From positions 64,001-128,000 of the IMG/VR virus record IMGVR_UViG_3300001765_000030: a stretch of DNA of 64,000 nt. One strand, 5' to 3'. Every line of letters starts with the position of its first letter. The stretch's first letter is position 1. Origin of the DNA: a virus. A model generated the notes under the pieces. It worked only from the letters and a program-made list of their open reading frames with translations. It searched no databases and was not told the DNA's origin. The translations under genes and the position numbers were made by a program. Positions 4,795-26,797 of the stretch are shown piece by piece.

Positions 4795-5648
4795 TCATAC
4801 TGAAACTTTTATCAATAGGTCTCCATCGATATATGTAGAATTCTGACTATAATCTGGCAGATCTCCAGTGAATTTATAACCTTTACCATTTACAATAATT
4901 ACATCTCCAGTTTTGATAAATCTTGAGACTCCATCGATTGTGATATAAAATGGTCGAGGTACAGTTTTCCAAGTTCTATTATAAATTATATCCGTAACAG
5001 ATTGTCTTGATATTCCAAATTTCTTACTTATATCACGTACAATCATACCTTCAAATTTGTAAGCACATAGTATTCTGAATGCGATATTTTCATTTATTAC
5101 TTTATTAGTGCAGTTTACTCTTAAAATTTTAAGATTGTTTCTAAAATCTGCACTTACGTGTCTATATGTTTTGAAAGTTATTATTGCGGCAATACTTTTT
5201 CTATCGTAGTTATATTTTCTAGACAGCTCATTTATACCAATTCCATCGGTATAATAATCATTTAACATGTTTATGATAATCTCATTTGATAACGGGACTA
5301 GAATTCGTCCATTCAATAATGATCTTGATGTTAACATTTTCAATACATTTTCGGAGAGACAATTTTAAGTTTGATAACTTATCATTAGTTTTATCATTAT
5401 CTATATGATCACAAGTTTCTGTGCCTCCATGATTCCTTGTTTTTTAATTTTCTACCTAATGATGATTCAAGTCTCCACGTTGAGGTATTTCTATTAATAA
5501 TGATATTATTCTTCTTAAATCTCAATCTTGTTTTATATCTACCATCACGCTTGTTGAAACTTTCACAATTCCAAATTATGTTATCATCATAAATATTTTC
5601 TAATAATTTTATTTCATTTTTATCAAGTCCCATATTATTTTCTACCAT
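4795..5648 (-). pseudogene. Frame-disrupted HNH homing endonuclease with tandem C-terminal HTH domains
   Basis: Three frames join as RLESSLGRKLKNKE / ETCDHIDNDKTNDKLSNLK / SENVLKM..., then two HTH repeats (ELSRKYNYDRKSIAAIITFKTYRHV; DISKKFGISRQSVTDIIYNRTWKTV). The 4795-5343 part is an intact ORF. Confidence 0.75.
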
Positions 5649-5665
5649 TTTTAATTTATATAAAA

Positions 5666-5696
5666 TATTTACTGCGGGACTATCCCGCAGTAAATA
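5666..5696 (-). terminator. Intrinsic terminator
   Basis: 14-bp stem TATTTACTGCGGGA-cta-TCCCGCAGTAAATA directly after lysozyme stop. Confidence 0.85.
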
Positions 5697-5699
5697 CTC

Positions 5700-6290
5700 T
5701 TAAATGTCAACCATAGCCTTGATAAATGTTGTTAACGGAACACCTGACCCATCCCGAGCAACATTGCCGGTATACAAGAACTGTTTAACTCTGCCAACAC
5801 CGATATGGTGAGCGGCGCCAAGTAACCCAGCTTTAGTTATGGTGTAACCGTGTACTTCTTTACCTACAAACCTTTTAATCTCTTTTTCAAGGTATTGTTG
5901 ATTTTTCAAAGCTAGCTTTTCCAGAGCTAGCAACTGTGCATCCGCTGGAAATATATCAGGATTTCTGATAAACTTCGCCACAGATACATTCTTCATACCA
6001 ATTTCTTTTAAAGCTAAATCCCCAATTTGATACAAACCTATATACATCTTGGAGCAGCTAACAGCACGTGGATCTCCACCAGACTCTTTACTTTCTATAA
6101 TCTTGGCAAATTTCTTGAAATCAAAACCAATTCCAGGGTCAACCTTTACAACAGGAGTTGTAGTGGTATCTATAACCGCAATCGATTTAGACGTATCAAT
6201 AGTTTGGACAATATTATTTACCGGCAAATATTCATTAGCAGATAGTACTGTTAAAGTTGTTAGTAGAAGAACTACTTTGATAGATCGCAT
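5700..6290 (-). CDS. Secreted lysozyme-like / lytic transglycosylase
   Basis: Signal peptide MRSIKVVLLLTTLTVLSA; ESGGDPRA and GLYQI motifs; AAHHIG. Confidence 0.8.
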   Translation of the reverse strand: MRSIKVVLLLTTLTVLSANEYLPVNNIVQTIDTSKSIAVIDTTTTPVVKVDPGIGFDFKKFAKIIESKESGGDPRAVSCSKMYIGLYQIGDLALKEIGMKNVSVAKFIRNPDIFPADAQLLALEKLALKNQQYLEKEIKRFVGKEVHGYTITKAGLLGAAHHIGVGRVKQFLYTGNVARDGSGVPLTTFIKAMVDI

Positions 6291-14896: not shown

Positions 14897-15042
14897 GTGC
14901 TGTAGAGTGCGGAGAACACTTCAATAAAACTGGTAAAATTCCACCTGTAAACCTTGTTACTTGGGTTAGCGTTTACAGTATAATTACTTCATGTGGTATA
15001 GTTCCCCCATGTAATAGTATTGTTGAAGGTGGAGACGCATAA
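14887..15042 (+). CDS. Small protein, 51 aa (MGMSAVECGEHF...), not in ORF track
   Basis: AAGGA RBS; overlaps GNAT stop; ends at terminator. Confidence 0.55.
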   Translation: MGMSAVECGEHFNKTGKIPPVNLVTWVSVYSIITSCGIVPPCNSIVEGGDA

Positions 15043-15050
15043 ATAAAAAA

Positions 15051-15077
15051 AAATAGGAGGGATATTCCCTCCTATTT
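15051..15077. terminator. Bidirectional terminator
   Basis: AAATAGGAGGGA-tat-TCCCTCCTATTT. Confidence 0.85.
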
Positions 15078-15083
15078 AAAATT

Positions 15084-15215
15084 TTACCATGCAATGATTT
15101 TACTATCAACAACGCGATGTCTTTCGATTACTTCAACGAGTGCACCATTCATGTTGAATTCTTCAAGGGTTTCCCCAAATCTGTCATATAATCTGTCTGA
15201 GATTTCCGATATCAT
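15084..15215 (-). CDS. Possible small protein (MISEISDRLYDRF...)
   Basis: Fills gap to terminator; weak RBS. Confidence 0.35.
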   Translation of the reverse strand: MISEISDRLYDRFGETLEEFNMNGALVEVIERHRVVDSKIIAW

Positions 15216-15477
15216 AGTCCGCTTCCGCCCGCAAGTTCCAAAGAGTGAAATCAATTTTATCATCACGCTCTTCGAACCATATCAACACATCTGCGGTTGG
15301 GACAACTTTCCCACTATCATTTTTCACGAATACTGCAATCGCCGATACTTGCACATCTTCCTCGATTTTGATACCGACTCGATAATCCTTCTTCACAACG
15401 ATCTCTGGTTTTTTGATTCCGAATTTCATAAACATCTCCCTTAAAAGTTTAATTGTTAGTATAGATATACTTTCCAT
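15184..15477 (-). CDS. Hypothetical protein
   Basis: ORF track; early motif directly upstream. Confidence 0.6.
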   Translation of the reverse strand: MESISILTIKLLREMFMKFGIKKPEIVVKKDYRVGIKIEEDVQVSAIAVFVKNDSGKVVPTADVLIWFEERDDKIDFTLWNLRAEADYDIGNLRQII

Positions 15478-15479
15478 AC

Positions 15480-15496
15480 CATAATGTTATATATAC
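15480..15496 (-). promoter_or_regulatory. Putative early promoter
   Basis: CATAATGTTATATATAC on plus strand. Confidence 0.55.
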
Positions 15497-15515
15497 TCAT
15501 ATTTGTTATTAAAGA

Positions 15516-15528
15516 AACATTGTAATGT
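15516..15528 (+). promoter_or_regulatory. Putative late (non-virion RNAP) promoter
   Basis: AACA-ttgtaa-TGT. Confidence 0.7.
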
Positions 15529-15549
15529 ATAATTACTAAGGAGTACTAT

Positions 15550-16533
15550 ATGGAATGGACTGATACAATTTCATTAGAAAACGATATGGAAGAACTTTTC
15601 GAAGAGAAATCTATCGATTCTGAAGAACTTGATGAAAACGTTAACATTATTCAAATGTCAGAAGAATTTTGGAAATCGTATTATGGTTTGGAAAGCCTTT
15701 TTGGATTTGAGAATTATCTTGATCCAAATAAAGTTTCAGAAGAGGGATTCCTTGATGCAGCTAAAGCATTCTTGGTAAATATTTTACATATGATTCCATA
15801 CTTGGTTGCAGTTCGTCGAATTGCTGATCTCATCTTGAACTTTGAAGAGGCTATCAAAGATGTAAATAGACCTTACATCTATTTCAGACGTGCAAATACA
15901 AGTCTTGTTGAAAAGATCGTTGACGAAATCTTTAAAGATAAAGCTAACACTGATAGATATAATATCATTGGTGTTTATCTTAATGGAAACGTTGGTGAAG
16001 CTATTGAAGGAATGAAGGTTTCATACAAGAAAGTTGAAGCACTTTTCAAATCTTTCAAATCTAGAGTTAGTAGCGGAAATATTTCGGAAATCATATCTGA
16101 TATCAAAGAATGCTCTAAAGAATTGGAAACAATTACTTCAGAGTATAATGAAGATGTTAAGAATACCGAAAAAGGTAAGCATAAACATAAGAATACTATC
16201 GTTGAGATTCTCAAATGGCCTGATACATATATGTATCAGATCAACAGTATTAATGGACTTATGAGAACTAATATTTTCAAAAAAGGTCTTGAAAACGCTA
16301 TCAAACTTGATTCAAAATATGATGGCGATAAGAATGCGAATGAAGCTGTAAAAGGTCTTATCAAACTTGTAAAAGATTATCTTGCACTGTACAAACGTGT
16401 TCAGAAAGATATCGAAAGAACTACCGACCTTGTAAAAGAGATCTATCAACACGTTGATTCTCAGTACAAACGTCGTGCTTCTATCTTTGCAGGTCTTGGT
16501 ATCAACCATCATGTTGATAAATCCGAAGATTAG
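15550..16533 (+). CDS. Putative internal head protein with acidic propeptide
   Basis: SLE, SEE, GLES, SEEG motifs in acidic N-terminus, then helical basic domain; late promoter. Confidence 0.6.
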   Translation: MEWTDTISLENDMEELFEEKSIDSEELDENVNIIQMSEEFWKSYYGLESLFGFENYLDPNKVSEEGFLDAAKAFLVNILHMIPYLVAVRRIADLILNFEEAIKDVNRPYIYFRRANTSLVEKIVDEIFKDKANTDRYNIIGVYLNGNVGEAIEGMKVSYKKVEALFKSFKSRVSSGNISEIISDIKECSKELETITSEYNEDVKNTEKGKHKHKNTIVEILKWPDTYMYQINSINGLMRTNIFKKGLENAIKLDSKYDGDKNANEAVKGLIKLVKDYLALYKRVQKDIERTTDLVKEIYQHVDSQYKRRASIFAGLGINHHVDKSED

Positions 16534-16542
16534 TATTTATAG

Positions 16543-16570
16543 TTTAGTATGGGAGAAATCCCATACTAAA
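16543..16570 (+). terminator. Intrinsic terminator
   Basis: TTTAGTATGGGA-gaaa-TCCCATACTAAA followed by T-rich tract. Confidence 0.85.
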
Positions 16571-16584
16571 TTCTTTTCTTTATG

Positions 16585-16597
16585 GACATCATATTGT
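16585..16597 (+). promoter_or_regulatory. Putative late promoter (GACA variant)
   Basis: GACA-tcatat-TGT. Confidence 0.5.
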
Positions 16598-16626
16598 AGA
16601 AATTTTAATCTGAATAAGGCGGTTAT

Positions 16627-18771
16627 ATGGATCTTGATAGAAATCCTAAGACTAGTAACAACCTGAGAGAGTTTGCATTAACAGGGTTTTTCAATACCTA
16701 TGACTTCAACATCTCTCAGATTTTGCAGAATTATGTTAAAGAATACACTGAGTTGCTAACCAAAGTTCTCAGCGATGAACGTGGTAACAGTGTCAATGAT
16801 GCGGATTATGATGAACTTCTCAAAACATTCTCTTCAAGTTATAATACACTTAGAAGATCTTATGGTTTGAAAGCTGGATCAATTATTCAACCAATTGACG
16901 CATCTACCAACAATGTAAAACTTACTGCGGATTCTGTAATCCCTGGATTCGATGCGATTAAACATTTTTATCGTCTTGATGACAATGTTAGACATCCTAA
17001 GAAGGGTGAAAACGTTTTCACTACACTTCTTAAACGTTTTAAAGCTGTTGAGTTCAGTGATAGCGAATCTGATAAGTTTTCTACAATCCGTCGTGAAATT
17101 GATTGTGAAATCGATGATACACTGATACCACTTTCATACTGTATCCCGATGGCTCGTACAGCTCTTGATAAACCTGAAGATGTTGAGACTCTCAACAAAT
17201 CTGACATTATCAATGTGTACACCCATATCGATAAAGATGATATGTATAGAATCATAACTATCCATGTTTGGAATAAACTCCAAGGCGAAGCACTTAAGAG
17301 TCTTGACACTTCAACGTTTAGAACTCTGTTCAGATCTGTTGTAGGTGAGGTTCTCAGTTATATTTCATCAAGAACTTTCTTGACTGAAATGATGGATAGT
17401 TTCGTTATCAGTACGAAGTTTGCGACATCTATCTTTGTAAGTACCATTGGAAGTTTGAATAAATATTATTCGAACGTATCTTTCAAAGGAACTCGTCAAT
17501 ACGTTGCCGATAAGATGAGATTCTTCGCTAAGAATAGCCCTCTGTATCAGGCTGGTTGGTCAGAAGATCCTAGAACTTCTCAATATGCTGCATCAAGAAC
17601 TTATGCTGGAGTATTGACTGGATCACGTAGTATGGATTTCGTATTCAACTCTATGATTTCAGATATCATGACAAAGAATATCTTTGTTGCTCCTAAAGAT
17701 CAAGATGACGCGATGTTGGAATTCCTTGTGTCGAATTCTATTGTATTCATGGTGTCATTGGCATCAGTGTCTATCGGCAGTAAAGATTTCAACGCTGGAA
17801 TTGAAAACCTCGTTGGAATTCCAAGTCGTTGTTTCGATGGCGATCGAACTCATGATAGTTATGAGATTAATAGAATTTTTGAATATCTCGAAAGTGTAGC
17901 ACCTGATTACACTAAAGTTATCGATGAATTCTACCAATCAGTTGCAGCTATCATTTCCGGATCATTTACTCTTAAATATGTATTTGACATCAAAGATCGT
18001 CTTTACAAATCTAAGAATATCTCTGTAAAAGACTATGAATTTGTCAAAGATATTATGAGATCCGGAGTTAATGGTGTTGAACAAGGTGAACGATATTTGT
18101 ATAGCGTTCAGAAAGACACATTTATCTCAGCTTCTGATAGTAAATGTTGTACTCCTGCAACCGATGGTCCTCGTGAGTGGGACAATGAAAGCGAAGATGA
18201 TAGACAGGGAGATATTAAAGATATCGTAAATAAAAGCGGCCTCTTTGATAAATTCATGAATATTCGTGGACGTATCACAGGTATGGGTACAGTTTACCGT
18301 CTTGTTCGCTACATTGCTTCTATTACAAGTAAGATGTATAGTATGCGTAATGATATGGAAAACAAACTCAACGTTCGTGGTGGACCTAAAACTTCATACG
18401 AATCCGAAGATACTGAAGATCTCAAACAAGGTGGATGGGCATTTGGAAACATTTTCTCTAAGACCTCTCAGAATATGATTTCTCTGTTTATGAGTGATAC
18501 AAAACTCGGAGTAGACATTAAACCATATTGTGATAAGTTGATTTCTGATGCGAAATTTGCTGCTGAGTCTGAAGATGAAGAAGCTCTTGCTGAAGCATAT
18601 AAAGGATCTATTAAACTTTCAATGGTTGTAGATACTGGTAATCTGACTGAAGATGAAGCTGAGGTTGCTCAGACTACTATTAGTAAAATTTCCGATATTA
18701 TCGAGAGTGCTGAAATCTCTTCGAATAATGGCGATTTTAAAATTAGTGTTGGTGAAGAAAATTTTCAGTAG
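16627..18771 (+). CDS. Putative virion protein, 714 aa (916 aa if -1 frameshifted)
   Basis: Long ORF in late module; AAGG RBS; no recognisable family. Confidence 0.75.
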   Translation: MDLDRNPKTSNNLREFALTGFFNTYDFNISQILQNYVKEYTELLTKVLSDERGNSVNDADYDELLKTFSSSYNTLRRSYGLKAGSIIQPIDASTNNVKLTADSVIPGFDAIKHFYRLDDNVRHPKKGENVFTTLLKRFKAVEFSDSESDKFSTIRREIDCEIDDTLIPLSYCIPMARTALDKPEDVETLNKSDIINVYTHIDKDDMYRIITIHVWNKLQGEALKSLDTSTFRTLFRSVVGEVLSYISSRTFLTEMMDSFVISTKFATSIFVSTIGSLNKYYSNVSFKGTRQYVADKMRFFAKNSPLYQAGWSEDPRTSQYAASRTYAGVLTGSRSMDFVFNSMISDIMTKNIFVAPKDQDDAMLEFLVSNSIVFMVSLASVSIGSKDFNAGIENLVGIPSRCFDGDRTHDSYEINRIFEYLESVAPDYTKVIDEFYQSVAAIISGSFTLKYVFDIKDRLYKSKNISVKDYEFVKDIMRSGVNGVEQGERYLYSVQKDTFISASDSKCCTPATDGPREWDNESEDDRQGDIKDIVNKSGLFDKFMNIRGRITGMGTVYRLVRYIASITSKMYSMRNDMENKLNVRGGPKTSYESEDTEDLKQGGWAFGNIFSKTSQNMISLFMSDTKLGVDIKPYCDKLISDAKFAAESEDEEALAEAYKGSIKLSMVVDTGNLTEDEAEVAQTTISKISDIIESAEISSNNGDFKISVGEENFQ

Positions 18772-19376
18772 AGTCGGCTGCAGGCGACTTCATTAAAAAA
18801 CTTCTAGATAATCATAAACTTGAAAAAATCTTAAATAAATATGATGATTTCAAGATTTATGATATCTATGAAGATGTAATATCGACCTACAGTGATAATA
18901 TTCGAAGTTTTATAAATTCGGTAAATGGTATTGATCGTGAAGATTTTGAATACTATAAGCGAGATGGAAATCGTGAGAATTTTAAAGACTTTTCCGAAAC
19001 TATCGCAGATATTACAGGTTATGATTCTGATGATAAAGATCGTATAATTCCATTTACGGATTATAATTTTGATAAAATTGATGATAAATCTAAAATATTG
19101 AAAATTATTAAAATGATAATTGGGAGATATGAATCTTTAGATAAGAGTGTAGTTGAAGTTGAAAATTCTAGAATTAAAGATAGTTTGCATAATACTTCAA
19201 TTATCATATCTGAAACAGCGAAAGCTCAATTCATTGGGAGATTGTTTGTTAAAACTAATTTTTATAAATTCAAATGTTTAACATTTGGAAAAGATTATGA
19301 AAAATTTAAACAATCGATGTCTAGTCTTGAAAAACATAATTTAAATATGTTTAAAAGATTATTATCCGAATTATAA
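18765..19376 (+). CDS. -1 frame extension of 16627-18771 (203 aa, no own start for the first 114 open codons)
   Basis: Frame open 18756-19376; slippery A_AAT_TTT at 18759-65; hairpin 18771-90; includes track ORF 19098-19376. Confidence 0.7.
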   Translation, partial: SVESAAGDFIKKLLDNHKLEKILNKYDDFKIYDIYEDVISTYSDNIRSFINSVNGIDREDFEYYKRDGNRENFKDFSETIADITGYDSDDKDRIIPFTDYNFDKIDDKSKILKIIKMIIGRYESLDKSVVEVENSRIKDSLHNTSIIISETAKAQFIGRLFVKTNFYKFKCLTFGKDYEKFKQSMSSLEKHNLNMFKRLLSEL

Positions 19377-19380
19377 CAAA

Positions 19381-19408
19381 AAAGAGGAGGGTTAATTCCC
19401 TCCTCTTT
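19381..19408. terminator. Bidirectional terminator
   Basis: AAAGAGGAGGG-ttaatt-CCCTCCTCTTT. Confidence 0.85.
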
Positions 19409-19425
19409 CTATTTACTTTACAATC

Positions 19426-19764
19426 TTATTTATAGATTGTAAAGTAAATAACTTCATCGGTAAGCTTTACATTCACGATGAAGCTTCCCATCTGATCTTC
19501 ATAATGGGTTTCCCCATTATCATTTTCTGGATACTCCTCATGAATATCTGTTAGGTTCATTGTAAGTGATTCCCCAAGATCGGGGAACGATAATGTTAAC
19601 TTCAATTTGTACTCATCATCCACAATAACCTTATATTTAACCGGGGTAAGTTCCCCGTTAAATATACATTCCTGCTGCCATATCATGTCAACATTATTTG
19701 CCTTAAAATCAGCGATAGTGAGAGAAAATTTAGATACAGGCTCAGTTGTTGTAAGAGTAGTCAT
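19426..19764 (-). CDS. Hypothetical protein (antisense cassette 1)
   Basis: Start moved to ATG 19764 (MTTLTTTEP) behind AGGA. Confidence 0.7.
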   Translation of the reverse strand: MTTLTTTEPVSKFSLTIADFKANNVDMIWQQECIFNGELTPVKYKVIVDDEYKLKLTLSFPDLGESLTMNLTDIHEEYPENDNGETHYEDQMGSFIVNVKLTDEVIYFTIYK

Positions 19765-19844
19765 AATAAATCCGTTCCTGGTTACTTTGAACCATAGAAA
19801 AATTTTGCGAAGTATAAGAAATCTTATCTTATATCCGACTTTGT

Positions 19845-19863
19845 CATAACTTAATATAGACAT
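19845..19863 (-). promoter_or_regulatory. Putative early promoter, GACAT variant
   Basis: CATAACTTAATATAGACAT, identical to 22371-22389. Confidence 0.65.
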
Positions 19864-19901: not shown

Positions 19902-22007
19902 ATGATCCATTTTAATACAACGAATGATTCTGCCGTCAAGATGGCGTATCTACTCGGTGAGATGGGTGTAAAGAATAATAAATTTATGCTCAGGTTAGAC
20001 AATCCTGCACTATTGCATGTAGATCCATTCTCTGAAACATTGACTGAATTGGAAAAGGCAATGATTACTCATGAGATTATTAATAATCCGTGGTACTTCT
20101 TCAGAGAAATTGTGAGAATTCCTGCAGGTGGTGGTGTAGCAAGATTTGAGTTCCATCGTGGAACATTAGCCTTAGTATGGGCAGTTATCAATGATATAAG
20201 TGCGTTTGTAGTATGGCCGCGACAGGCTTATAAAACTACAACTATGTGTACTATATACAATTACCTTTATTATTGGGGAAGTGTCCACAATAAAATGGTA
20301 TTCATTGCACACGAAGATGCTATTGTAAAGAAAAACCTTCAAGGTGTAAAAGATATACGAGATAATCTTCCGGATTGGCTTAATCAGTATGATAGCAAGA
20401 AGGATAGAGATAATGAAAGAGAGATGTACAATCGATCTAATGATAATCGTATATCTTGTCGTGCTCCTGCTCGAAATCCTGATGGTGCTAGAAAAGCTGG
20501 TCGAGGACTTACAACTCCTTCTCAGTGGTTTGACGAGATCGCGTTCATTAGCTATATCGGTGAAATGTACGATAGTATCTCTTTCGCATATAGTAAAGCA
20601 TCTGAACTCGCAAGAGAAAATGGTTCTCCTTATCATCAGATCATGACAACTACTGCAGGATTCCTTAATACCGAAGAAGGCAAATGGTCTTATAAATTCC
20701 TTATGAGTTGTGCAGACTTCTCTGAATCTTATTATGATATGGAAATTGAAGTTGTTAAAACAATTATTAACAATACTTCCACTTCAGGATTCATTGATCT
20801 TTCCTTCATGTATTATGACCTTGGTAAAGATGAGAATTATCTTGATGATCAAAAACGTCGTCTTGCTAACTCTCCTACTCCGCAAGATACGCTAGATCGA
20901 GAAGTTCTTAATAAATGGAAAGATATTTCCACTGAACACCCTCTTGGTCAAGAACGTATTGAGAGATTGAATACTCTTATTAAATCTCCATTAGACCACG
21001 CTATTATTAATGATACATATGCAATGCGTATATACGTTGATCTAAGCAAATTTGATTGTAGTAAACAGTTGATCGGTGGTATGGACTTAGGTGGTAACTT
21101 AAAAGGAGACTTCTCAACTTTAGTTGTTATAGATCCTACCAATTTTAAAGTTGTTGCTGTAATGAGAACTAACTCTCAAAGTACAACTCTTTATTCGATG
21201 GGTATCATAAGTATCATGACTGATCTATTCCCTAACTTGGTAATATTCCCTGAGCGTAACTACAATGGTGCAATTATCGATAATATCGTAAGTTACATCC
21301 CTGGTGGAACTCGTAGAGTATACCATGAAGGACCAGATCGCCCAGGTATCTTCAACAGTAAGAAAATTCGCCCTATACTCTTCAATGTATTACTTCGTAT
21401 TGCAGTTGATGAATATGGTGATAGAATTATGGATAAAACTATTATTTCTGAAATATCAGGACTTATCCGTCTTAGAAATGGTAGAATAGACCATAGACCA
21501 GGAAACCATGATGATACACTTATGGCATATCTATTAGGACTATACTTTTTACTTTATGTGGAAGATGTAGGAATGTATATAGATAAGTCTAAAATATTGT
21601 CTGACTTCGATAAAGGTAATATGGTCGGAGTTATTGGAAACTCTGGTAATGCTAAAAAGAAAACTGATAGTAAACTTAGAAGAATCATTGGAGATCAGTA
21701 TAATGATCTCATGAGTCATCAGAATGAGATTCATTCTATTGAAGATCTGTCTAATTTACTTACATCTAAGAAAATCTTTAGAGATGGTATGAAGACTAAA
21801 ATTCATAAAGTTTCTGGAGAGTTTGATGGGGATTCACTGGAAGATAGTGATGATCTTGATAATATTAGATCAAACATTGCAAACGTTAAAGATAACGAAA
21901 ATAGTGTTGTTAAACCTATGTATGTTGAAAATCGTGGAGTTAATCGAACTAACGATTTCAAATCGGTGTTTAATAATTGGGATCGTATATTTGGAAACGT
22001 TGCATAA
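19902..22007 (+). CDS. terL: Terminase large subunit, phiKZ/AR9 type
   Basis: GVKNNKFML...VDPF...NPWYFFREIVRIP N-terminus; Walker A PRQAYKTT; Walker B WFDEIAF; RNase H domain GMDLGG and HDDTLMAY. Confidence 0.95.
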   Translation: MIHFNTTNDSAVKMAYLLGEMGVKNNKFMLRLDNPALLHVDPFSETLTELEKAMITHEIINNPWYFFREIVRIPAGGGVARFEFHRGTLALVWAVINDISAFVVWPRQAYKTTTMCTIYNYLYYWGSVHNKMVFIAHEDAIVKKNLQGVKDIRDNLPDWLNQYDSKKDRDNEREMYNRSNDNRISCRAPARNPDGARKAGRGLTTPSQWFDEIAFISYIGEMYDSISFAYSKASELARENGSPYHQIMTTTAGFLNTEEGKWSYKFLMSCADFSESYYDMEIEVVKTIINNTSTSGFIDLSFMYYDLGKDENYLDDQKRRLANSPTPQDTLDREVLNKWKDISTEHPLGQERIERLNTLIKSPLDHAIINDTYAMRIYVDLSKFDCSKQLIGGMDLGGNLKGDFSTLVVIDPTNFKVVAVMRTNSQSTTLYSMGIISIMTDLFPNLVIFPERNYNGAIIDNIVSYIPGGTRRVYHEGPDRPGIFNSKKIRPILFNVLLRIAVDEYGDRIMDKTIISEISGLIRLRNGRIDHRPGNHDDTLMAYLLGLYFLLYVEDVGMYIDKSKILSDFDKGNMVGVIGNSGNAKKKTDSKLRRIIGDQYNDLMSHQNEIHSIEDLSNLLTSKKIFRDGMKTKIHKVSGEFDGDSLEDSDDLDNIRSNIANVKDNENSVVKPMYVENRGVNRTNDFKSVFNNWDRIFGNVA

Positions 22008-23280: not shown

Positions 23281-23931
23281 ATGAATAACAACGAAGATGA
23301 ATTATTTTTGTCAACTGACGACGATTCTTGTCTTGAAAGTGTTGAAATTGTATTTCTAAATAATATTAGAGATCAAATCAGTAATAAATTTGGAAACTTT
23401 ACTGGAGAGTTCAAGTATGAAACCGACTATATTCTAGAGTATGTAAGAACCACGATGGACGGTGATGATAATACTATTGAGAACTTTGAAGATGCATGTA
23501 AAGCATCTGATAAAGAAGCTCAGTATGACACCTTCACAAATGGTTTGATACAGATCTTTGAAGAATGTTTAGGTGTTGTAGTAGATCTGGATAGAGAAAT
23601 TACATATTTCTCAGATCTGTATGATATCTACTTAACATTTGTTTTGTTTATTAAAGAGAATCTTGTTAAGTCTTCTAAGAATTATTATTTCTTCAATGGT
23701 ATTTCCGATAAGATGCCTAAGAATTTCATTACAGAATACGTATTCAGTGATGAATTCTGTGCAGCTGATGACTTTGTGAGATATGCTGCTAAGGGTGATA
23801 ATGTCGATGAATCGTTGAGAAAAGTTGATGACAATTTTGCTCAAATGGTTTACTACATTGAACAAGATAAATTCCTTGAAGTTATTAAAAACGTGATGGT
23901 TAACGGGGATATGGAGGATATCAATGGATGA
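23281..23931 (+). CDS. Acidic putative virion/assembly protein
   Basis: GGGGAG RBS; lies between terminase and sheath. Confidence 0.7.
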   Translation: MNNNEDELFLSTDDDSCLESVEIVFLNNIRDQISNKFGNFTGEFKYETDYILEYVRTTMDGDDNTIENFEDACKASDKEAQYDTFTNGLIQIFEECLGVVVDLDREITYFSDLYDIYLTFVLFIKENLVKSSKNYYFFNGISDKMPKNFITEYVFSDEFCAADDFVRYAAKGDNVDESLRKVDDNFAQMVYYIEQDKFLEVIKNVMVNGDMEDING

Positions 23932-24656
23932 TAATCTTAAAAGATACTTCGAAATAACCGCTGATAAACGTTTTATTGTAAAGCAGGGAAAGTACGTTGA
24001 AGTGAGAATGCCTAATTATTACTTCACGACAAACGTTTCTGAAATAATCGGAGACACAATAAGTACGTTTGGTTTCTTAGATTTATATGTGTGGGATACT
24101 GTTTCTGATGAAAATAAAGACTGTAAAGATTCATTTAAGACTTCCAACTCTTATTTCTACCAAACCTACTCGAATTATCGGTGACAGTAAGAATGATATG
24201 ACGATTCTTGAATACTTTGGAGGAGATGCACTTATAGTTAACACTGTAGTTGCTAAAACTCACAAAGTTGTAGTTAAGTATATCCTTCTTATGCTAAACG
24301 GTAAGATTCCTGACGACATCCCTTATGATCAAATAATCTCATATCTTGAAAAATGTTGTGAGTTAAATAATATCAATATGGGCGTAAATTCGATATTTTT
24401 AGATCTCATGGCAATGATGGTATCGAGAGATCCTCAAAACCCATCAAGACAGTTCAGAGAGGCTCTACGAGATAATCCTAAACTGTCTATGCTTATGAGA
24501 AAGCTTGTAAATGTTGACGCAATTCCGTCACTAACATCTCAATTCAGCGCAATTACAGGAAGTAATCCTAAGTTTGCAATGACTAGTAGTATTGGTGCTG
24601 TAAGAAGTGGTGATATGAAGCTTGAAGAATCGGATATCGAAAAAGCTATTCAATAG
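23924..24656 (+). CDS. Conserved jumbo-phage structural protein split by a +1 frame change (23924-24184 and 24087/24108-24656)
   Basis: Halves match a recalled pre-sheath family: VRMPNYYF...GDTISTFG then LPTLISTKP...GKIPDDIPYD...SRDP...FR...SQFSAITGSN. Confidence 0.6.
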
Positions 24657-24742: not shown

Positions 24743-26797
24743 ATGGGTCCAATTACACTGAATTCAGTGAACCATGATGGCCTGGTAAAAACTACACTCC
24801 GGGACGGTTCTATTCTCCCACCAACCCCCGAAGCTACGGTAACTGGCATTGGATATCTTCAACCTTTCTTTTCTAGAAAAGGTCGTGGTAATACAATTAC
24901 TCGTTTTACTGGTATCGGTGCTTTTGATTCAGAATTCGGCTCTGATGTCGATGATGTTCGTAAGTATGGCCATGGTGGATTGATTGCTCGCGAAGTTCTC
25001 GCTGGCGGTGGAATTGTCGATGCGTGTAGATTGATGCCAAGTGATGCTTTGAGAGCATCAAGTGTTCTTAAACTTCAGATTACTGAAGAAGAAGTTGAAA
25101 CGACCGATGCTGCTGGTACAACTACCACAAAAAATGGCGCGACTATTAAACTTCTGCAGACTGCATATAGTTTTGCCGATGGCACAAACTATGCAACAAA
25201 CATGGCTCCAACTGTAGACGTTACTGGTAAAGTTCACACTTTCCCACTCTTTGCGTTTATTTGTGATGGTGCCGGCGAATATGGTAATAAATATTACTAT
25301 AAAATCGTTCCAAGTTCAGACCGTGACGGAAAAAATGGCGATGGTCGTCGTTATGACGTCATTATTTATGAAAAACTCCCTTCTGGTTCATACGAACGTG
25401 TTGGAAGTCCTTTCGAAACGATTACAACTGCTCTCAACCCGAATGCAGTAGTTCTCCCAGGATCAACAGTTCCTGACAGTTTTGATGTAAACTACCCTGA
25501 ATATAAAGAGAAGTATAACCTTCCAGTGTCAATAAATTTTGATGTTGAAAACTACGAAGCCGCTCTTGAAGTTCTTAGAGGTATTGACGACGTTGATACC
25601 GAAGTTCCTGTAATTGAAATGCTTGATATCCTTACATGTAAGACTGTTAAAGGTCTTGAATATGCATCTGTTAAGCTCGATACTGCCGGGATTGTAATGT
25701 CCACCACAATGACAGCTCTTTCAGGTGGTACAGACGGGGATCTTTTCTCAAAAGCTCTTGTTTATATTGATGCTGATGGTGAAGTTATTGCTAATACCAA
25801 CGGTGTTTCAGCTCTTGCTGGAAAAGTGTATTATACCGCTGCGGATATGGCAACTCTTCAAACAGGCAATACTCCTGCAACGAGTTTCTTCCGTACGATT
25901 AGTAAAATTACTACTCGCGGAGAACTTACTCGTAAAGAACTGCTTATCTCATTCTATTCAGGTGAAATCGATCAGAATCTGTTCGATTGTCGCGTTATTG
26001 AATCAGGTATTACACTTGATGCATGGTGGCCTCTTGAAGTTAAAAATGTTATGGCGACTACATTTGGTGAACAAGTTCGTGATGATATTTATGTTGTATG
26101 TGACCTTGGTCCAGACATTTATACCGCAAACGATGCTGAAGCGAATAAAGATCTCATTTCAGTTTCTTCAACAAGTCACGGTCAAGTTACAATCGTTGCT
26201 CACAACGGTAAAACTATAAACCGTGTGAAGAACGTTCGTACTTCTTGTACATATGAACTTGCATCTTCGCTTCCAAAACTATATCGTAACCGTGGTAATT
26301 TCACAGTTCTTTCAGGTTACTTCTCTGGAAAAATCCAGAATATGAAACTTGATTACTACCCACGTGTAGTAAAAGACAACCTTGAAATTGCACCTCTTAA
26401 AGATGCAAAACTCCTCTATGCTCTCCGTTTGGATAGCTCAGATGACCGTTATTGGATGAATGATGAATCAATGTATAATACAGATTACTCGGTAATGAAC
26501 TCATTCCGGAATGGTATCTTCATTGGTGTAATCATCCGTCTTTTCAAACGCATTCTTGCGAAATATTCGTTCCACCCTGGAAATGCTGCTGGAGCAATCC
26601 CTGCTGCAACTCTTGAAATTTCGACAACTCTTTCTAGTGGATATTATCCATCTAGCATCCCTGTCAAATTTACAATCTTCCAGACGAAGAATGATAAGAT
26701 TAACAAAACTGCATCTTGTGACGTTGCGATTTACTTCCCAGATGTAATCGAAGCATTTAATGTGACTATTACAGCTAATCGTCAAGAATCGAAATAG
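24743..26797 (+). CDS. Tail sheath protein
   Basis: 684 aa; FDSEFG...KYGHGGL...DACRLMP N-terminus and sheath-like C-terminus; directly upstream of tube; strong codon bias. Confidence 0.8.
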   Translation: MGPITLNSVNHDGLVKTTLRDGSILPPTPEATVTGIGYLQPFFSRKGRGNTITRFTGIGAFDSEFGSDVDDVRKYGHGGLIAREVLAGGGIVDACRLMPSDALRASSVLKLQITEEEVETTDAAGTTTTKNGATIKLLQTAYSFADGTNYATNMAPTVDVTGKVHTFPLFAFICDGAGEYGNKYYYKIVPSSDRDGKNGDGRRYDVIIYEKLPSGSYERVGSPFETITTALNPNAVVLPGSTVPDSFDVNYPEYKEKYNLPVSINFDVENYEAALEVLRGIDDVDTEVPVIEMLDILTCKTVKGLEYASVKLDTAGIVMSTTMTALSGGTDGDLFSKALVYIDADGEVIANTNGVSALAGKVYYTAADMATLQTGNTPATSFFRTISKITTRGELTRKELLISFYSGEIDQNLFDCRVIESGITLDAWWPLEVKNVMATTFGEQVRDDIYVVCDLGPDIYTANDAEANKDLISVSSTSHGQVTIVAHNGKTINRVKNVRTSCTYELASSLPKLYRNRGNFTVLSGYFSGKIQNMKLDYYPRVVKDNLEIAPLKDAKLLYALRLDSSDDRYWMNDESMYNTDYSVMNSFRNGIFIGVIIRLFKRILAKYSFHPGNAAGAIPAATLEISTTLSSGYYPSSIPVKFTIFQTKNDKINKTASCDVAIYFPDVIEAFNVTITANRQESK

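What the first reader, a model, noticed from the sequence alone, without database searches (positions are those of the whole stretch)
18753..19376. Candidate programmed -1 frameshift adds 203 aa to a virion gene and puts a protease motif at the junction
Seen: ORF 16627-18771 ends GAA GAA AAT TTT CAG TAG. The -1 frame is open from 18756 to TAA 19374-76 but has no ATG, GTG or TTG for 114 codons (first is TTG 19098), and it reads as ordinary protein (FSVESAAGDFIKKLLDNHKLEK...). An in-phase X_XXY_YYZ heptamer A_AAT_TTT is at 18759-65. A GC-rich hairpin GAGTCG-GCTGCAGG-CGACTT (18771-90) starts 5 nt later, which is canonical spacing. The 916-aa product has the junction EENF-SVE-S, a prohead-protease-type motif, and what follows resembles SEE-GFLDAAKAFL in 15550. 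Inference: frameshifting sets the copy number of a second head protein that is then cut free. I know of phage frameshifts in tail chaperones and capsid or tail extensions, but not this pairing with proteolysis. Caveat: losing one T from a T5 run in the assembly would give the identical protein.
Basis: partly seen in the sequence, partly recalled or inferred. Interest (0 to 1): 0.85.

Follow-up and report, generated by a model that had tools for sequence, protein, structure and literature searches.

The report
Possible ribosomal frameshift in jumbo phage
A late gene of an uncultured phiKZ-like giant phage stops just after a classic slippery sequence and is followed by a 203-codon reading frame with no start, so some ribosomes probably slip back one base and make a longer protein. 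No relative carries the added piece, so this rests on sequence signals alone, and the proposed link to a head protease is not supported.

Summary
ORF 16627-18771 (714 aa) ends GAA GAA AAT TTT CAG TAG. The -1 frame is open from 18756 to 19376 and has no ATG, GTG or TTG for 114 codons. A_AAT_TTT lies in phase at 18759-65, and a -7.6 kcal/mol hairpin starts 5 nt later.

It is not an assembly slip. Two Logan assemblies from other SRA runs carry the same T4 junction, and one of them differs from the window elsewhere.

The extension has the codon usage of a real gene and no Shine-Dalgarno-backed start. It ends 4 nt before a terminator. In the only two relatives (about 30% identity), the same terminator follows the homologue's stop directly.

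The extension is an orphan: the only match among 1.84 billion representatives is to itself. Conservation, the decisive test, therefore cannot be run.

- **Best reading (about 0.58):** a -1 programmed frameshift yields an 81-kDa and a 104.5-kDa protein.
- **Main rival (about 0.25):** a fixed one-base deletion in a formerly continuous gene.
- **Protease idea:** not supported. S/A/G-x-E occurs 11 times against 10.5 expected, and the claimed likeness to gene 15550 is not significant.
- **"Virion gene":** rests on synteny alone.

Earlier notes of this scan describe similar frameshift-appended domains on jumbo-phage head proteins in other genomes. If this one is real, it is a new member of a known kind.

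The parts
16627..18771 (+). 0-frame ORF (P0001, 714 aa, 80.7 kDa). Fast-evolving, predicted all-helical late protein of unknown function, just upstream of TerL.
   Evidence: Only two homologue clusters exist (P0003, P0004, 28-30% identity). No Pfam, PHROG, PDB or Atlas hit. AF2 pLDDT is 34.5.
18753..18755 (+). TGA that closes the -1 frame just before the slip site. The two frames overlap only over 18756-18768.
18759..18765 (+). In-phase slippery heptamer A_AAT_TTT (X_XXY_YYZ).
   Evidence: The class H_HH.U_UU.Y is among the most efficient in E. coli (PMC4066793). It is the only in-phase heptamer in the genome followed by a long start-less -1 frame.
18769..18771 (+). 0-frame TAG stop, one codon after the heptamer.
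   Evidence: A stop 3 nt after a G_GAU_UUU site matters in pea enation mosaic virus (PMC5009743); this is an analogy only.
18771..18790 (+). GC-rich hairpin GAGTCG-GCTGCAGG-CGACTT, 5 nt after the heptamer.
   Evidence: -7.6 kcal/mol. The downstream fold of -8.3 is in the best 4.6% of 50,808 in-phase coding positions. Region z-score is -2.37.
18765..19376 (+). -1 frame extension: 203 codons plus TAA, read from the re-read T at 18765 (SVESAAGDF...LLSEL). Orphan, predicted helical.
   Evidence: Codon usage is gene-like. No start with an SD. No homologue in 1.84e9 representatives apart from the 87-aa gene call from this same frame (P0005); none in IMG/VR, PDB or the Atlas. AF2 pLDDT is 36.8.
19381..19408 (.). 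Bidirectional intrinsic terminator that ends the P0001-plus-extension unit. The same terminator sequence follows the homologue's stop directly in relatives.
   Evidence: compare.
16541..16572 (+). Terminator upstream of P0001, marking the start of the unit.

Best explanation
The transcription unit 16573-19408 carries one cistron read in two ways.

Most ribosomes translate 16627-18771 and stop at TAG. This gives a 714-aa (81-kDa) protein of the same extent as the full-length homologues in related phages.

A minority slip back one base. This happens with tRNA-Asn and tRNA-Phe on A_AAU_UUU (18759-65), while the ribosome is held up by the hairpin 5 nt downstream and perhaps by the nearby stop. These ribosomes continue through 203 more codons and end 4 nt before the terminator, giving a 916-aa (104.5-kDa) protein with a lineage-specific helical C-terminal domain.

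Shown:
- the anatomy;
- that the sequence is real;
- that the extension is coding-like;
- that the extension lacks any initiation signal.

Inferred:
- that the slip occurs and is selected;
- its efficiency (probably a few per cent, given the weak hairpin);
- any role of the longer form.
For: - Heptamer in phase, within the 13-nt overlap of the two frames. Its class is highly efficient in E. coli.
- Hairpin at the canonical 5-nt spacing, with its fold in the top 4.6%.
- No ATG, GTG or TTG for 114 codons, and no SD before any canonical or near-cognate start. By contrast, 124 of 187 genes have an SD-like 4-mer.
- Extension codon usage is 0.334 bits/codon, like genes. Off-frames are negative.
- No terminator lies between the stop and the extension. 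A terminator follows the extension directly, and it is the terminator that follows the homologue's stop in L002 and L003.
- The junction is identical in assemblies from SRR21758068 and SRR931349. Both contigs run through it unbroken. The SRR21758068 population differs from the window at other sites.
- Simulated 1-nt deletions in homopolymer runs of 5 or more give such a heptamer in only 8-11% of cases. Heptamer and hairpin together are therefore roughly 100-fold likelier under a programmed site than under a chance indel; this factor is my own estimate.
Against: - No conservation evidence. The only relatives (P0003, P0004) end about 18 aa earlier and have no extension. All copies that do have the extension are identical in sequence.
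- The extension is an orphan with no confident fold.
- The hairpin is weak (-7.6 kcal/mol) and no pseudoknot was seen.
- In-phase AAATTTT is not avoided in this phage's genes: 11 in phase against 9 and 6 in the other phases.
- The window's record carries two other frame-breaking deletions relative to a sibling assembly, so frame-breaking indels do occur in this lineage.
- The host and its tRNA set are unknown.
Confidence: 0.58

Rival explanations
1. Fixed frameshift mutation. The ancestor had a continuous gene of about 917 codons (A4T5 or A5T4). One base was lost from the run, and the gene now ends at TAG. The extension is then a young untranslated remnant, or is rescued only at an incidental low level by slippage on the same run.
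For: - Indels favour homopolymer runs, and the break lies in A4T4.
- The window's record has two other frame-breaking deletions, of 5 nt and 8 nt, relative to SRR21758068 contigs.
- The truncated product equals the full length of the relatives' proteins, so the loss could be tolerated.
- All copies are nearly identical, so an intact downstream frame says little about selection.
Against: - Only 8-11% of simulated run deletions create an in-phase heptamer in the overlap.
- Only 4.6% of positions have as good a downstream fold.
- The state is fixed and unbroken in two other read sets, including the population that has the other two genes intact.
Confidence: 0.25
2. Separate downstream gene. The extension, or only its last 87-92 codons from TTG 19098 or ATG 19113, is translated by its own initiation, possibly at a non-canonical codon such as ATT 18792.
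For: Gene callers annotate an 87-aa ORF here (P0005). ATT 18792 has an AGG 8 nt upstream.
Against: - There is no SD before TTG 19098, ATG 19113 or any near-cognate codon, whereas most genes here have a clear one.
- 114 upstream codons stay open at 33% GC and have gene-like codon usage.
- The AGG before ATT lies inside the hairpin.
Confidence: 0.07
3. Gene remnant. A deletion removed the 5' part and the start of a once independent downstream gene. The rest sits by chance in the -1 frame and is not translated.
For: Relatives have nothing between the homologue's stop and the terminator. This region of the genome is a site of insertions: an antisense cassette lies at 19426-19863.
Against: The heptamer, the hairpin and a frame that opens 3 codons before the slip site would all be coincidence, roughly 1% x 5%.
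Confidence: 0.06
4. Sequencing or assembly error. The true sequence has five T (or five A) and one continuous ORF.
For: The window's record differs by indels from other assemblies at two other sites.
Against: Three assemblies from at least two SRA runs agree base for base at the junction.
Confidence: 0.04

Closest known systems
-1 programmed frameshifts that add a C-terminal extension to a phage structural protein (T7 gene 10A/10B; Lactobacillus phage A2 gp5A/gp5B; Ig-like domains added by frameshift). These examples are from my own knowledge; the general class is reviewed in PMC5009743.
   Same: The heptamer lies at the very end of the 0-frame ORF, with a start-less -1 frame behind it. A short major product and a longer minor product share the N-terminal body. 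The added piece is lineage-specific.
   Different: The carrier protein here has no known function and is not shown to be in the virion. The extension is an orphan rather than a recognisable domain. No conservation and no protein evidence is available.
Lambda gpG/gpGT-type tail assembly chaperone frameshift
   Same: The recoding logic is the same: a slippery heptamer near the stop and a fixed low ratio of long to short form.
   Different: The genomic place is wrong: upstream of TerL, not between the tail tube and tape measure genes. The size is wrong too: 714 aa against about 100-150 aa. It is not a member.
E. coli dnaX and IS-element -1 frameshift sites (heptamer rules of Sharma et al. 2014, PMC4066793)
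   Same: X_XXZ_ZZN heptamer of the efficient H_HH.U_UU.Y class, with a downstream hairpin after 5 nt.
   Different: There is no upstream SD-like stimulator at the 10-14 nt spacing. The hairpin is much weaker than the dnaX stem-loop or the IS3 pseudoknot.
Prohead-protease processing of phiKZ-like and SPN3US head proteins (A-X-E, or S/A/G-X-E, cleavage; PMC10052503)
   Same: The phage is phiKZ-like by TerL and by a phage RNA polymerase beta subunit. S-V-E|S at the junction fits the motif, including the preferred Ser at P1'.
   Different: The motif occurs at the background rate. The reported cleavages remove N-terminal propeptides, not a 714-aa body. No protease gene was found here.

Membership tests
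-1 programmed ribosomal frameshift site (X_XXY_YYZ type) | Slippery heptamer in the 0-frame phase, inside the overlap of the two frames | tested here: met
   A_AAT_TTT at 18759-65; the overlap is 18756-68. The class is efficient in E. coli.
-1 programmed ribosomal frameshift site (X_XXY_YYZ type) | Downstream -1 ORF that is coding and cannot be started on its own | tested here: met
   203 codons with gene-like codon usage. No start for 114 codons and no SD at any start or near-cognate codon.
-1 programmed ribosomal frameshift site (X_XXY_YYZ type) | Stimulatory RNA structure 5-9 nt downstream | tested here: met
   Hairpin at 18771-90 with a 5-nt spacer and -7.6 kcal/mol, in the top 4.6% of positions. 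It is weak, and no pseudoknot was found.
-1 programmed ribosomal frameshift site (X_XXY_YYZ type) | Two-frame layout, heptamer and structure conserved in diverged relatives | tested here: inconclusive
   Only two relatives exist, and both lack the extension. The copies that have it are identical in sequence.
-1 programmed ribosomal frameshift site (X_XXY_YYZ type) | Both protein products detected, or reporter activity shown | not testable with these tools
   Needs proteomics or a dual-reporter assay.
Lambda G/GT-type tail assembly chaperone | Small gene pair between the tail tube and tape measure genes | tested here: not met
   The gene is 714 aa and lies directly upstream of TerL. The sheath and tube genes are 6-8 kb downstream.
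Substrate of a phiKZ/SPN3US-type prohead protease | Cleavage motif [S/A/G]-x-E enriched or conserved at the proposed site | tested here: inconclusive
   SVE|S is present at the junction, but there are 11 motifs against 10.5 expected. The junction has no counterpart in relatives. Two other motifs (S590-x-E592|S/N and [A/G]645-x-E647|S) are conserved in all three homologues.
Substrate of a phiKZ/SPN3US-type prohead protease | Phage encodes the protease, and the protein is a head component | tested here: inconclusive
   PF03420 gives only a sub-threshold hit (E 0.014) in a 69%-complete record. Synteny matches annotated structural proteins in BpSp and Goslar, but there is no significant similarity.

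The most novel reading that the evidence does not exclude
The 714-aa protein is a fast-evolving head (ejection or inner-body type) protein of a phiKZ-like phage. The frameshift attaches a small, set fraction of a start-less 'cargo' domain to it, so that the domain is carried into the capsid. The prohead protease then frees the domain at S-V-E|S. This would be one more instance of a frameshift-dosed, protease-released cargo device, which earlier unchecked notes of this scan describe in other jumbo phages.
Probability: 0.1. Interest if true: 0.65.

Novelty: new member of a known kind. Interest (0 to 1): 0.35.

Why it matters
If the slip is real, public annotation of this phage misses a 104.5-kDa protein and instead calls a spurious 87-aa gene. 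It would also add a case of recoding to phiKZ-like jumbo phages. I found no paper describing a C-terminal extension made by frameshifting in that group; one literature search turned up nothing.

The site is compact, about 35 nt, and easy to test in a reporter. Because the carrier and the extension are both orphans and no diverged relative keeps the layout, the case adds little beyond one more candidate until protein data exist.

A practical by-product concerns the 'split' pre-sheath gene nearby. That split is an 8-nt deletion in this record, not recoding.

Tried and rejected
- **Relatives of the extension.** I searched phmmer against 1.84e9 representatives, IMG/VR, INPHARED by tblastn, PDB, PHROGs and Pfam and the ESM Atlas. 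The only matches were the 87-aa gene call from the same frame and one marginal PHROG hit (E 0.0085).
- **More relatives of the carrier.** Profile searches of 5.8e9 proteins, IMG/VR, JGI metagenomes and GTDB genomes gave only P0003 and P0004. An exact-pattern scan for indel variants of the junction in JGI metagenomes found none.
- **Structure.** AF2 of the extension alone gave pLDDT 36.8, and of the carrier with its 3-row alignment gave 34.5. Both are too poor for fold searches, so I ran none.
- **Likeness to the 15550 protein.** Not significant.
- **Stop-codon reassignment.** Reading TAG through in the 0 frame meets TAG and TAA within about 25 codons (output), and the coding density under table 11 is 93%.
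- **Second heptamer case.** The only other heptamer with a long -1 ORF in the genome (C1:39168-39420, minus strand) is an ordinary ATGA start-stop overlap.
- **Transcriptional slippage.** Runs of four are too short by what is known of slippage (my own knowledge).
- **SRA run numbers.** None of the four appears in the paper library.

Full report
**What is there**

The window is bases 64001-128000 of a 181-kb IMG/VR virus record, 33% GC and estimated 69% complete. The phage is a distant phiKZ-like jumbo phage.
- Its TerL (19902-22007) matches Goslar, Bacillus phages BpSp and Goe21, RP12 and phiKZ-like phages at about 30% identity.
- The window also holds a tail sheath gene, a tail tube gene and a phage RNA polymerase beta subunit.

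ORF 16627-18771 (P0001, 714 aa) ends GAA GAA AAT TTT CAG TAG. The -1 frame is closed by TGA at 18753-55 and then stays open from 18756 to TAA 19374-76. Its first ATG, GTG or TTG is TTG 19098, at codon 115. The two frames overlap over only 13 nt, and that overlap holds A_AAT_TTT in phase at 18759-65. A hairpin (GAGTCG / 8-nt loop / CGACTT, -7.6 kcal/mol) starts 5 nt after the heptamer. Slipping there gives a 916-aa, 104.5-kDa protein with the junction EENF|SVESAAGDF.

**Is the sequence real?**

The exact 714-aa product and the 87-aa gene call are on record from several sources. Two Logan assemblies contain the junction.
- L004/L005 from SRR21758068 covers window 14978-19535.
- L006 from SRR931349 covers window 17788-19803.

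Both carry the same A4T4 junction, and both contigs run through it unbroken.

The SRR21758068 population is not the window's record. Compared with it, the window lacks 5 nt at about 15190 and 8 nt at 24120/21, and differs by a base at 25276. An assembly slip is therefore very unlikely. The two-frame layout is also present in the population whose neighbouring genes are intact.

**Is the extension coding, and can it start on its own?**

At this base composition, a 206-codon open frame is very unlikely by chance (about 1e-7, my estimate). The codon-usage score of the extension is 0.334 bits per codon. Genes score 0.31 +/- 0.115, off-frames score -0.22 +/- 0.085, and the extension's own other two frames score -0.16 and -0.09.

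Most genes here have a clear AGGAG-type SD: 124 of 187 have an SD-like 4-mer. TTG 19098, ATG 19113 and every in-frame ATT, ATC, ATA or CTG in the extension lack one. The only exception is a bare AGG, inside the hairpin, before ATT 18792.

Terminators lie at 16541-72 and 19381-19408, with none in between. P0001 and the extension therefore share one transcription unit.

**Relatives**

P0001 has only two homologue clusters among 5.8 billion proteins: P0003 and P0004, at 28-30% identity. Nothing more turned up in IMG/VR, JGI metagenomes or GTDB genomes. L002, which encodes P0004, is a true relative, since its TerL is 60% identical. P0001 is therefore a fast-evolving protein.

Both homologues end about 18 residues before P0001 does. 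Each is followed at once by an intrinsic terminator whose sequence matches the one at 19381-19408. In L002, TerL comes next. The extension thus sits exactly between the end of the core protein and the conserved terminator.

With only one sister lineage, gain and loss cannot be told apart. The extension itself has no homologue at all. The decisive comparative test is whether relatives keep the two frames, the heptamer and the hairpin, and it cannot be run.

**Weighing the readings**

In-phase XXXYYYZ heptamers occur at 0.35% of codons. This one is the only heptamer followed by a long start-less -1 frame; the runner-up is an ordinary ATGA overlap. A_AAU_UUU belongs to the H_HH.U_UU.Y class, which Sharma et al. 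list among the most efficient in E. coli (PMC4066793). The downstream fold is in the best 4.6% of 50,808 equivalent positions.

The main rival is a one-base deletion in a run, which would naturally fall in A4T4. I simulated such deletions in all runs of 5 or more within genes. An in-phase heptamer fell inside the frame overlap in 59 of 515 cases, and an efficient-class heptamer in 41 of 515. Heptamer and hairpin together are then roughly a hundred times more expected under a programmed site (my estimate).

Three things weigh on the other side.
- The record carries two other frame-breaking deletions.
- The hairpin is weak.
- There is no conservation or protein evidence.

I put the programmed frameshift at about 0.58, a fixed mutation (possibly with incidental rescue) at 0.25, own initiation at 0.07, a remnant at 0.06, and error at 0.04.

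One point is well supported in either of the first two cases: the 203 codons are, or very recently were, a C-terminal domain of P0001.

**The protease idea and the 'virion gene' label**

[S/A/G]-x-E occurs 11 times in the 916-aa fusion, against 10.5 expected from the genome-wide rate. SVE at the junction therefore carries no weight. In SPN3US the motif is A-X-E with Ser favoured at P1', and the reported cleavages remove N-terminal propeptides (PMC10052503). A Pfam search for a T4-type prohead protease gave only a sub-threshold hit in this incomplete record. The claimed likeness to the 15550 protein is not significant.

Two other motifs, at 590-592 and 645-647, are conserved in all three homologues. 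That is a hint and no more.

The gene just upstream of TerL is annotated 'structural protein sp46 precursor' in BpSp and 'virion structural protein' in Goslar. P0001 shows no significant similarity to either (hhalign E 0.067). AF2 models of both parts are unusable, with pLDDT 34-37 and an all-helical prediction.

**Comparison and verdict**

This works like the known -1 frameshifts that give phage structural proteins an optional C-terminal extension. It is not a G/GT-type tail chaperone. Notes from this scan on other genomes describe similar frameshift-appended domains on jumbo-phage head proteins. Those notes are unchecked and I did not use them as evidence, but they mean this is not the first such candidate in the scan, and several of them are reported there as conserved across relatives.

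If real, this is a new member of a known kind, with moderate to low interest until a reporter assay or proteomics is done.

Noticed in passing
window 24103-24130 (genes 23924-24184 and 24087-24656): The 'split' pre-sheath gene is not recoding. The window's record lacks 8 nt (TTCAGATT) between 24120 and 24121 that the SRR21758068 contig L007 has. In L007 the gene is one 246-aa ORF, like the 245-aa gene of relative L002. The SRR931349 contig L008 ends at 24109, just before the site, which may mean both variants occur in that sample.
   Followed up: yes
window 15189-15190 (minus-strand gene about 15084-15429): The window lacks 5 nt (AAACA) that contig L004 (SRR21758068) has. L004 encodes a 116-aa minus-strand protein, and the window's copy is cut short at 15184. 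This is a second frame-breaking deletion in this record.
   Followed up: partly
L007:1-800 versus G000:C1:5471-6270 and window 22304: The Logan contig L007 joins genome bases 5471-6270 directly to window 22304 onward, at the leader of an antisense mini-cassette. This is either a mis-join through the repeated cassette promoter or leader, or a real rearrangement or cassette exchange between strains.
   Followed up: partly
P0001 residues 590-592 and 645-647 (window about 18394-18402 and 18559-18567): Two [S/A/G]-x-E motifs followed by Ser or Asn are invariant in all three homologues, despite about 30% overall identity. They may be conserved prohead-protease sites in the C-terminal part of this family.
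   Followed up: no
window 19381-19408; L002:7985-8015; L003:3070-3100: The terminator hairpin after this gene is conserved in sequence (AAAGAGG...CCTCTCTTT) across phages whose proteins are only 30-60% identical.
   Followed up: no
window 16627-18771 versus 19902-22007: P0001 is 28-30% identical to its homologues, while the adjacent TerL is 60% identical. The gene evolves unusually fast for a late-region gene.
   Followed up: partly
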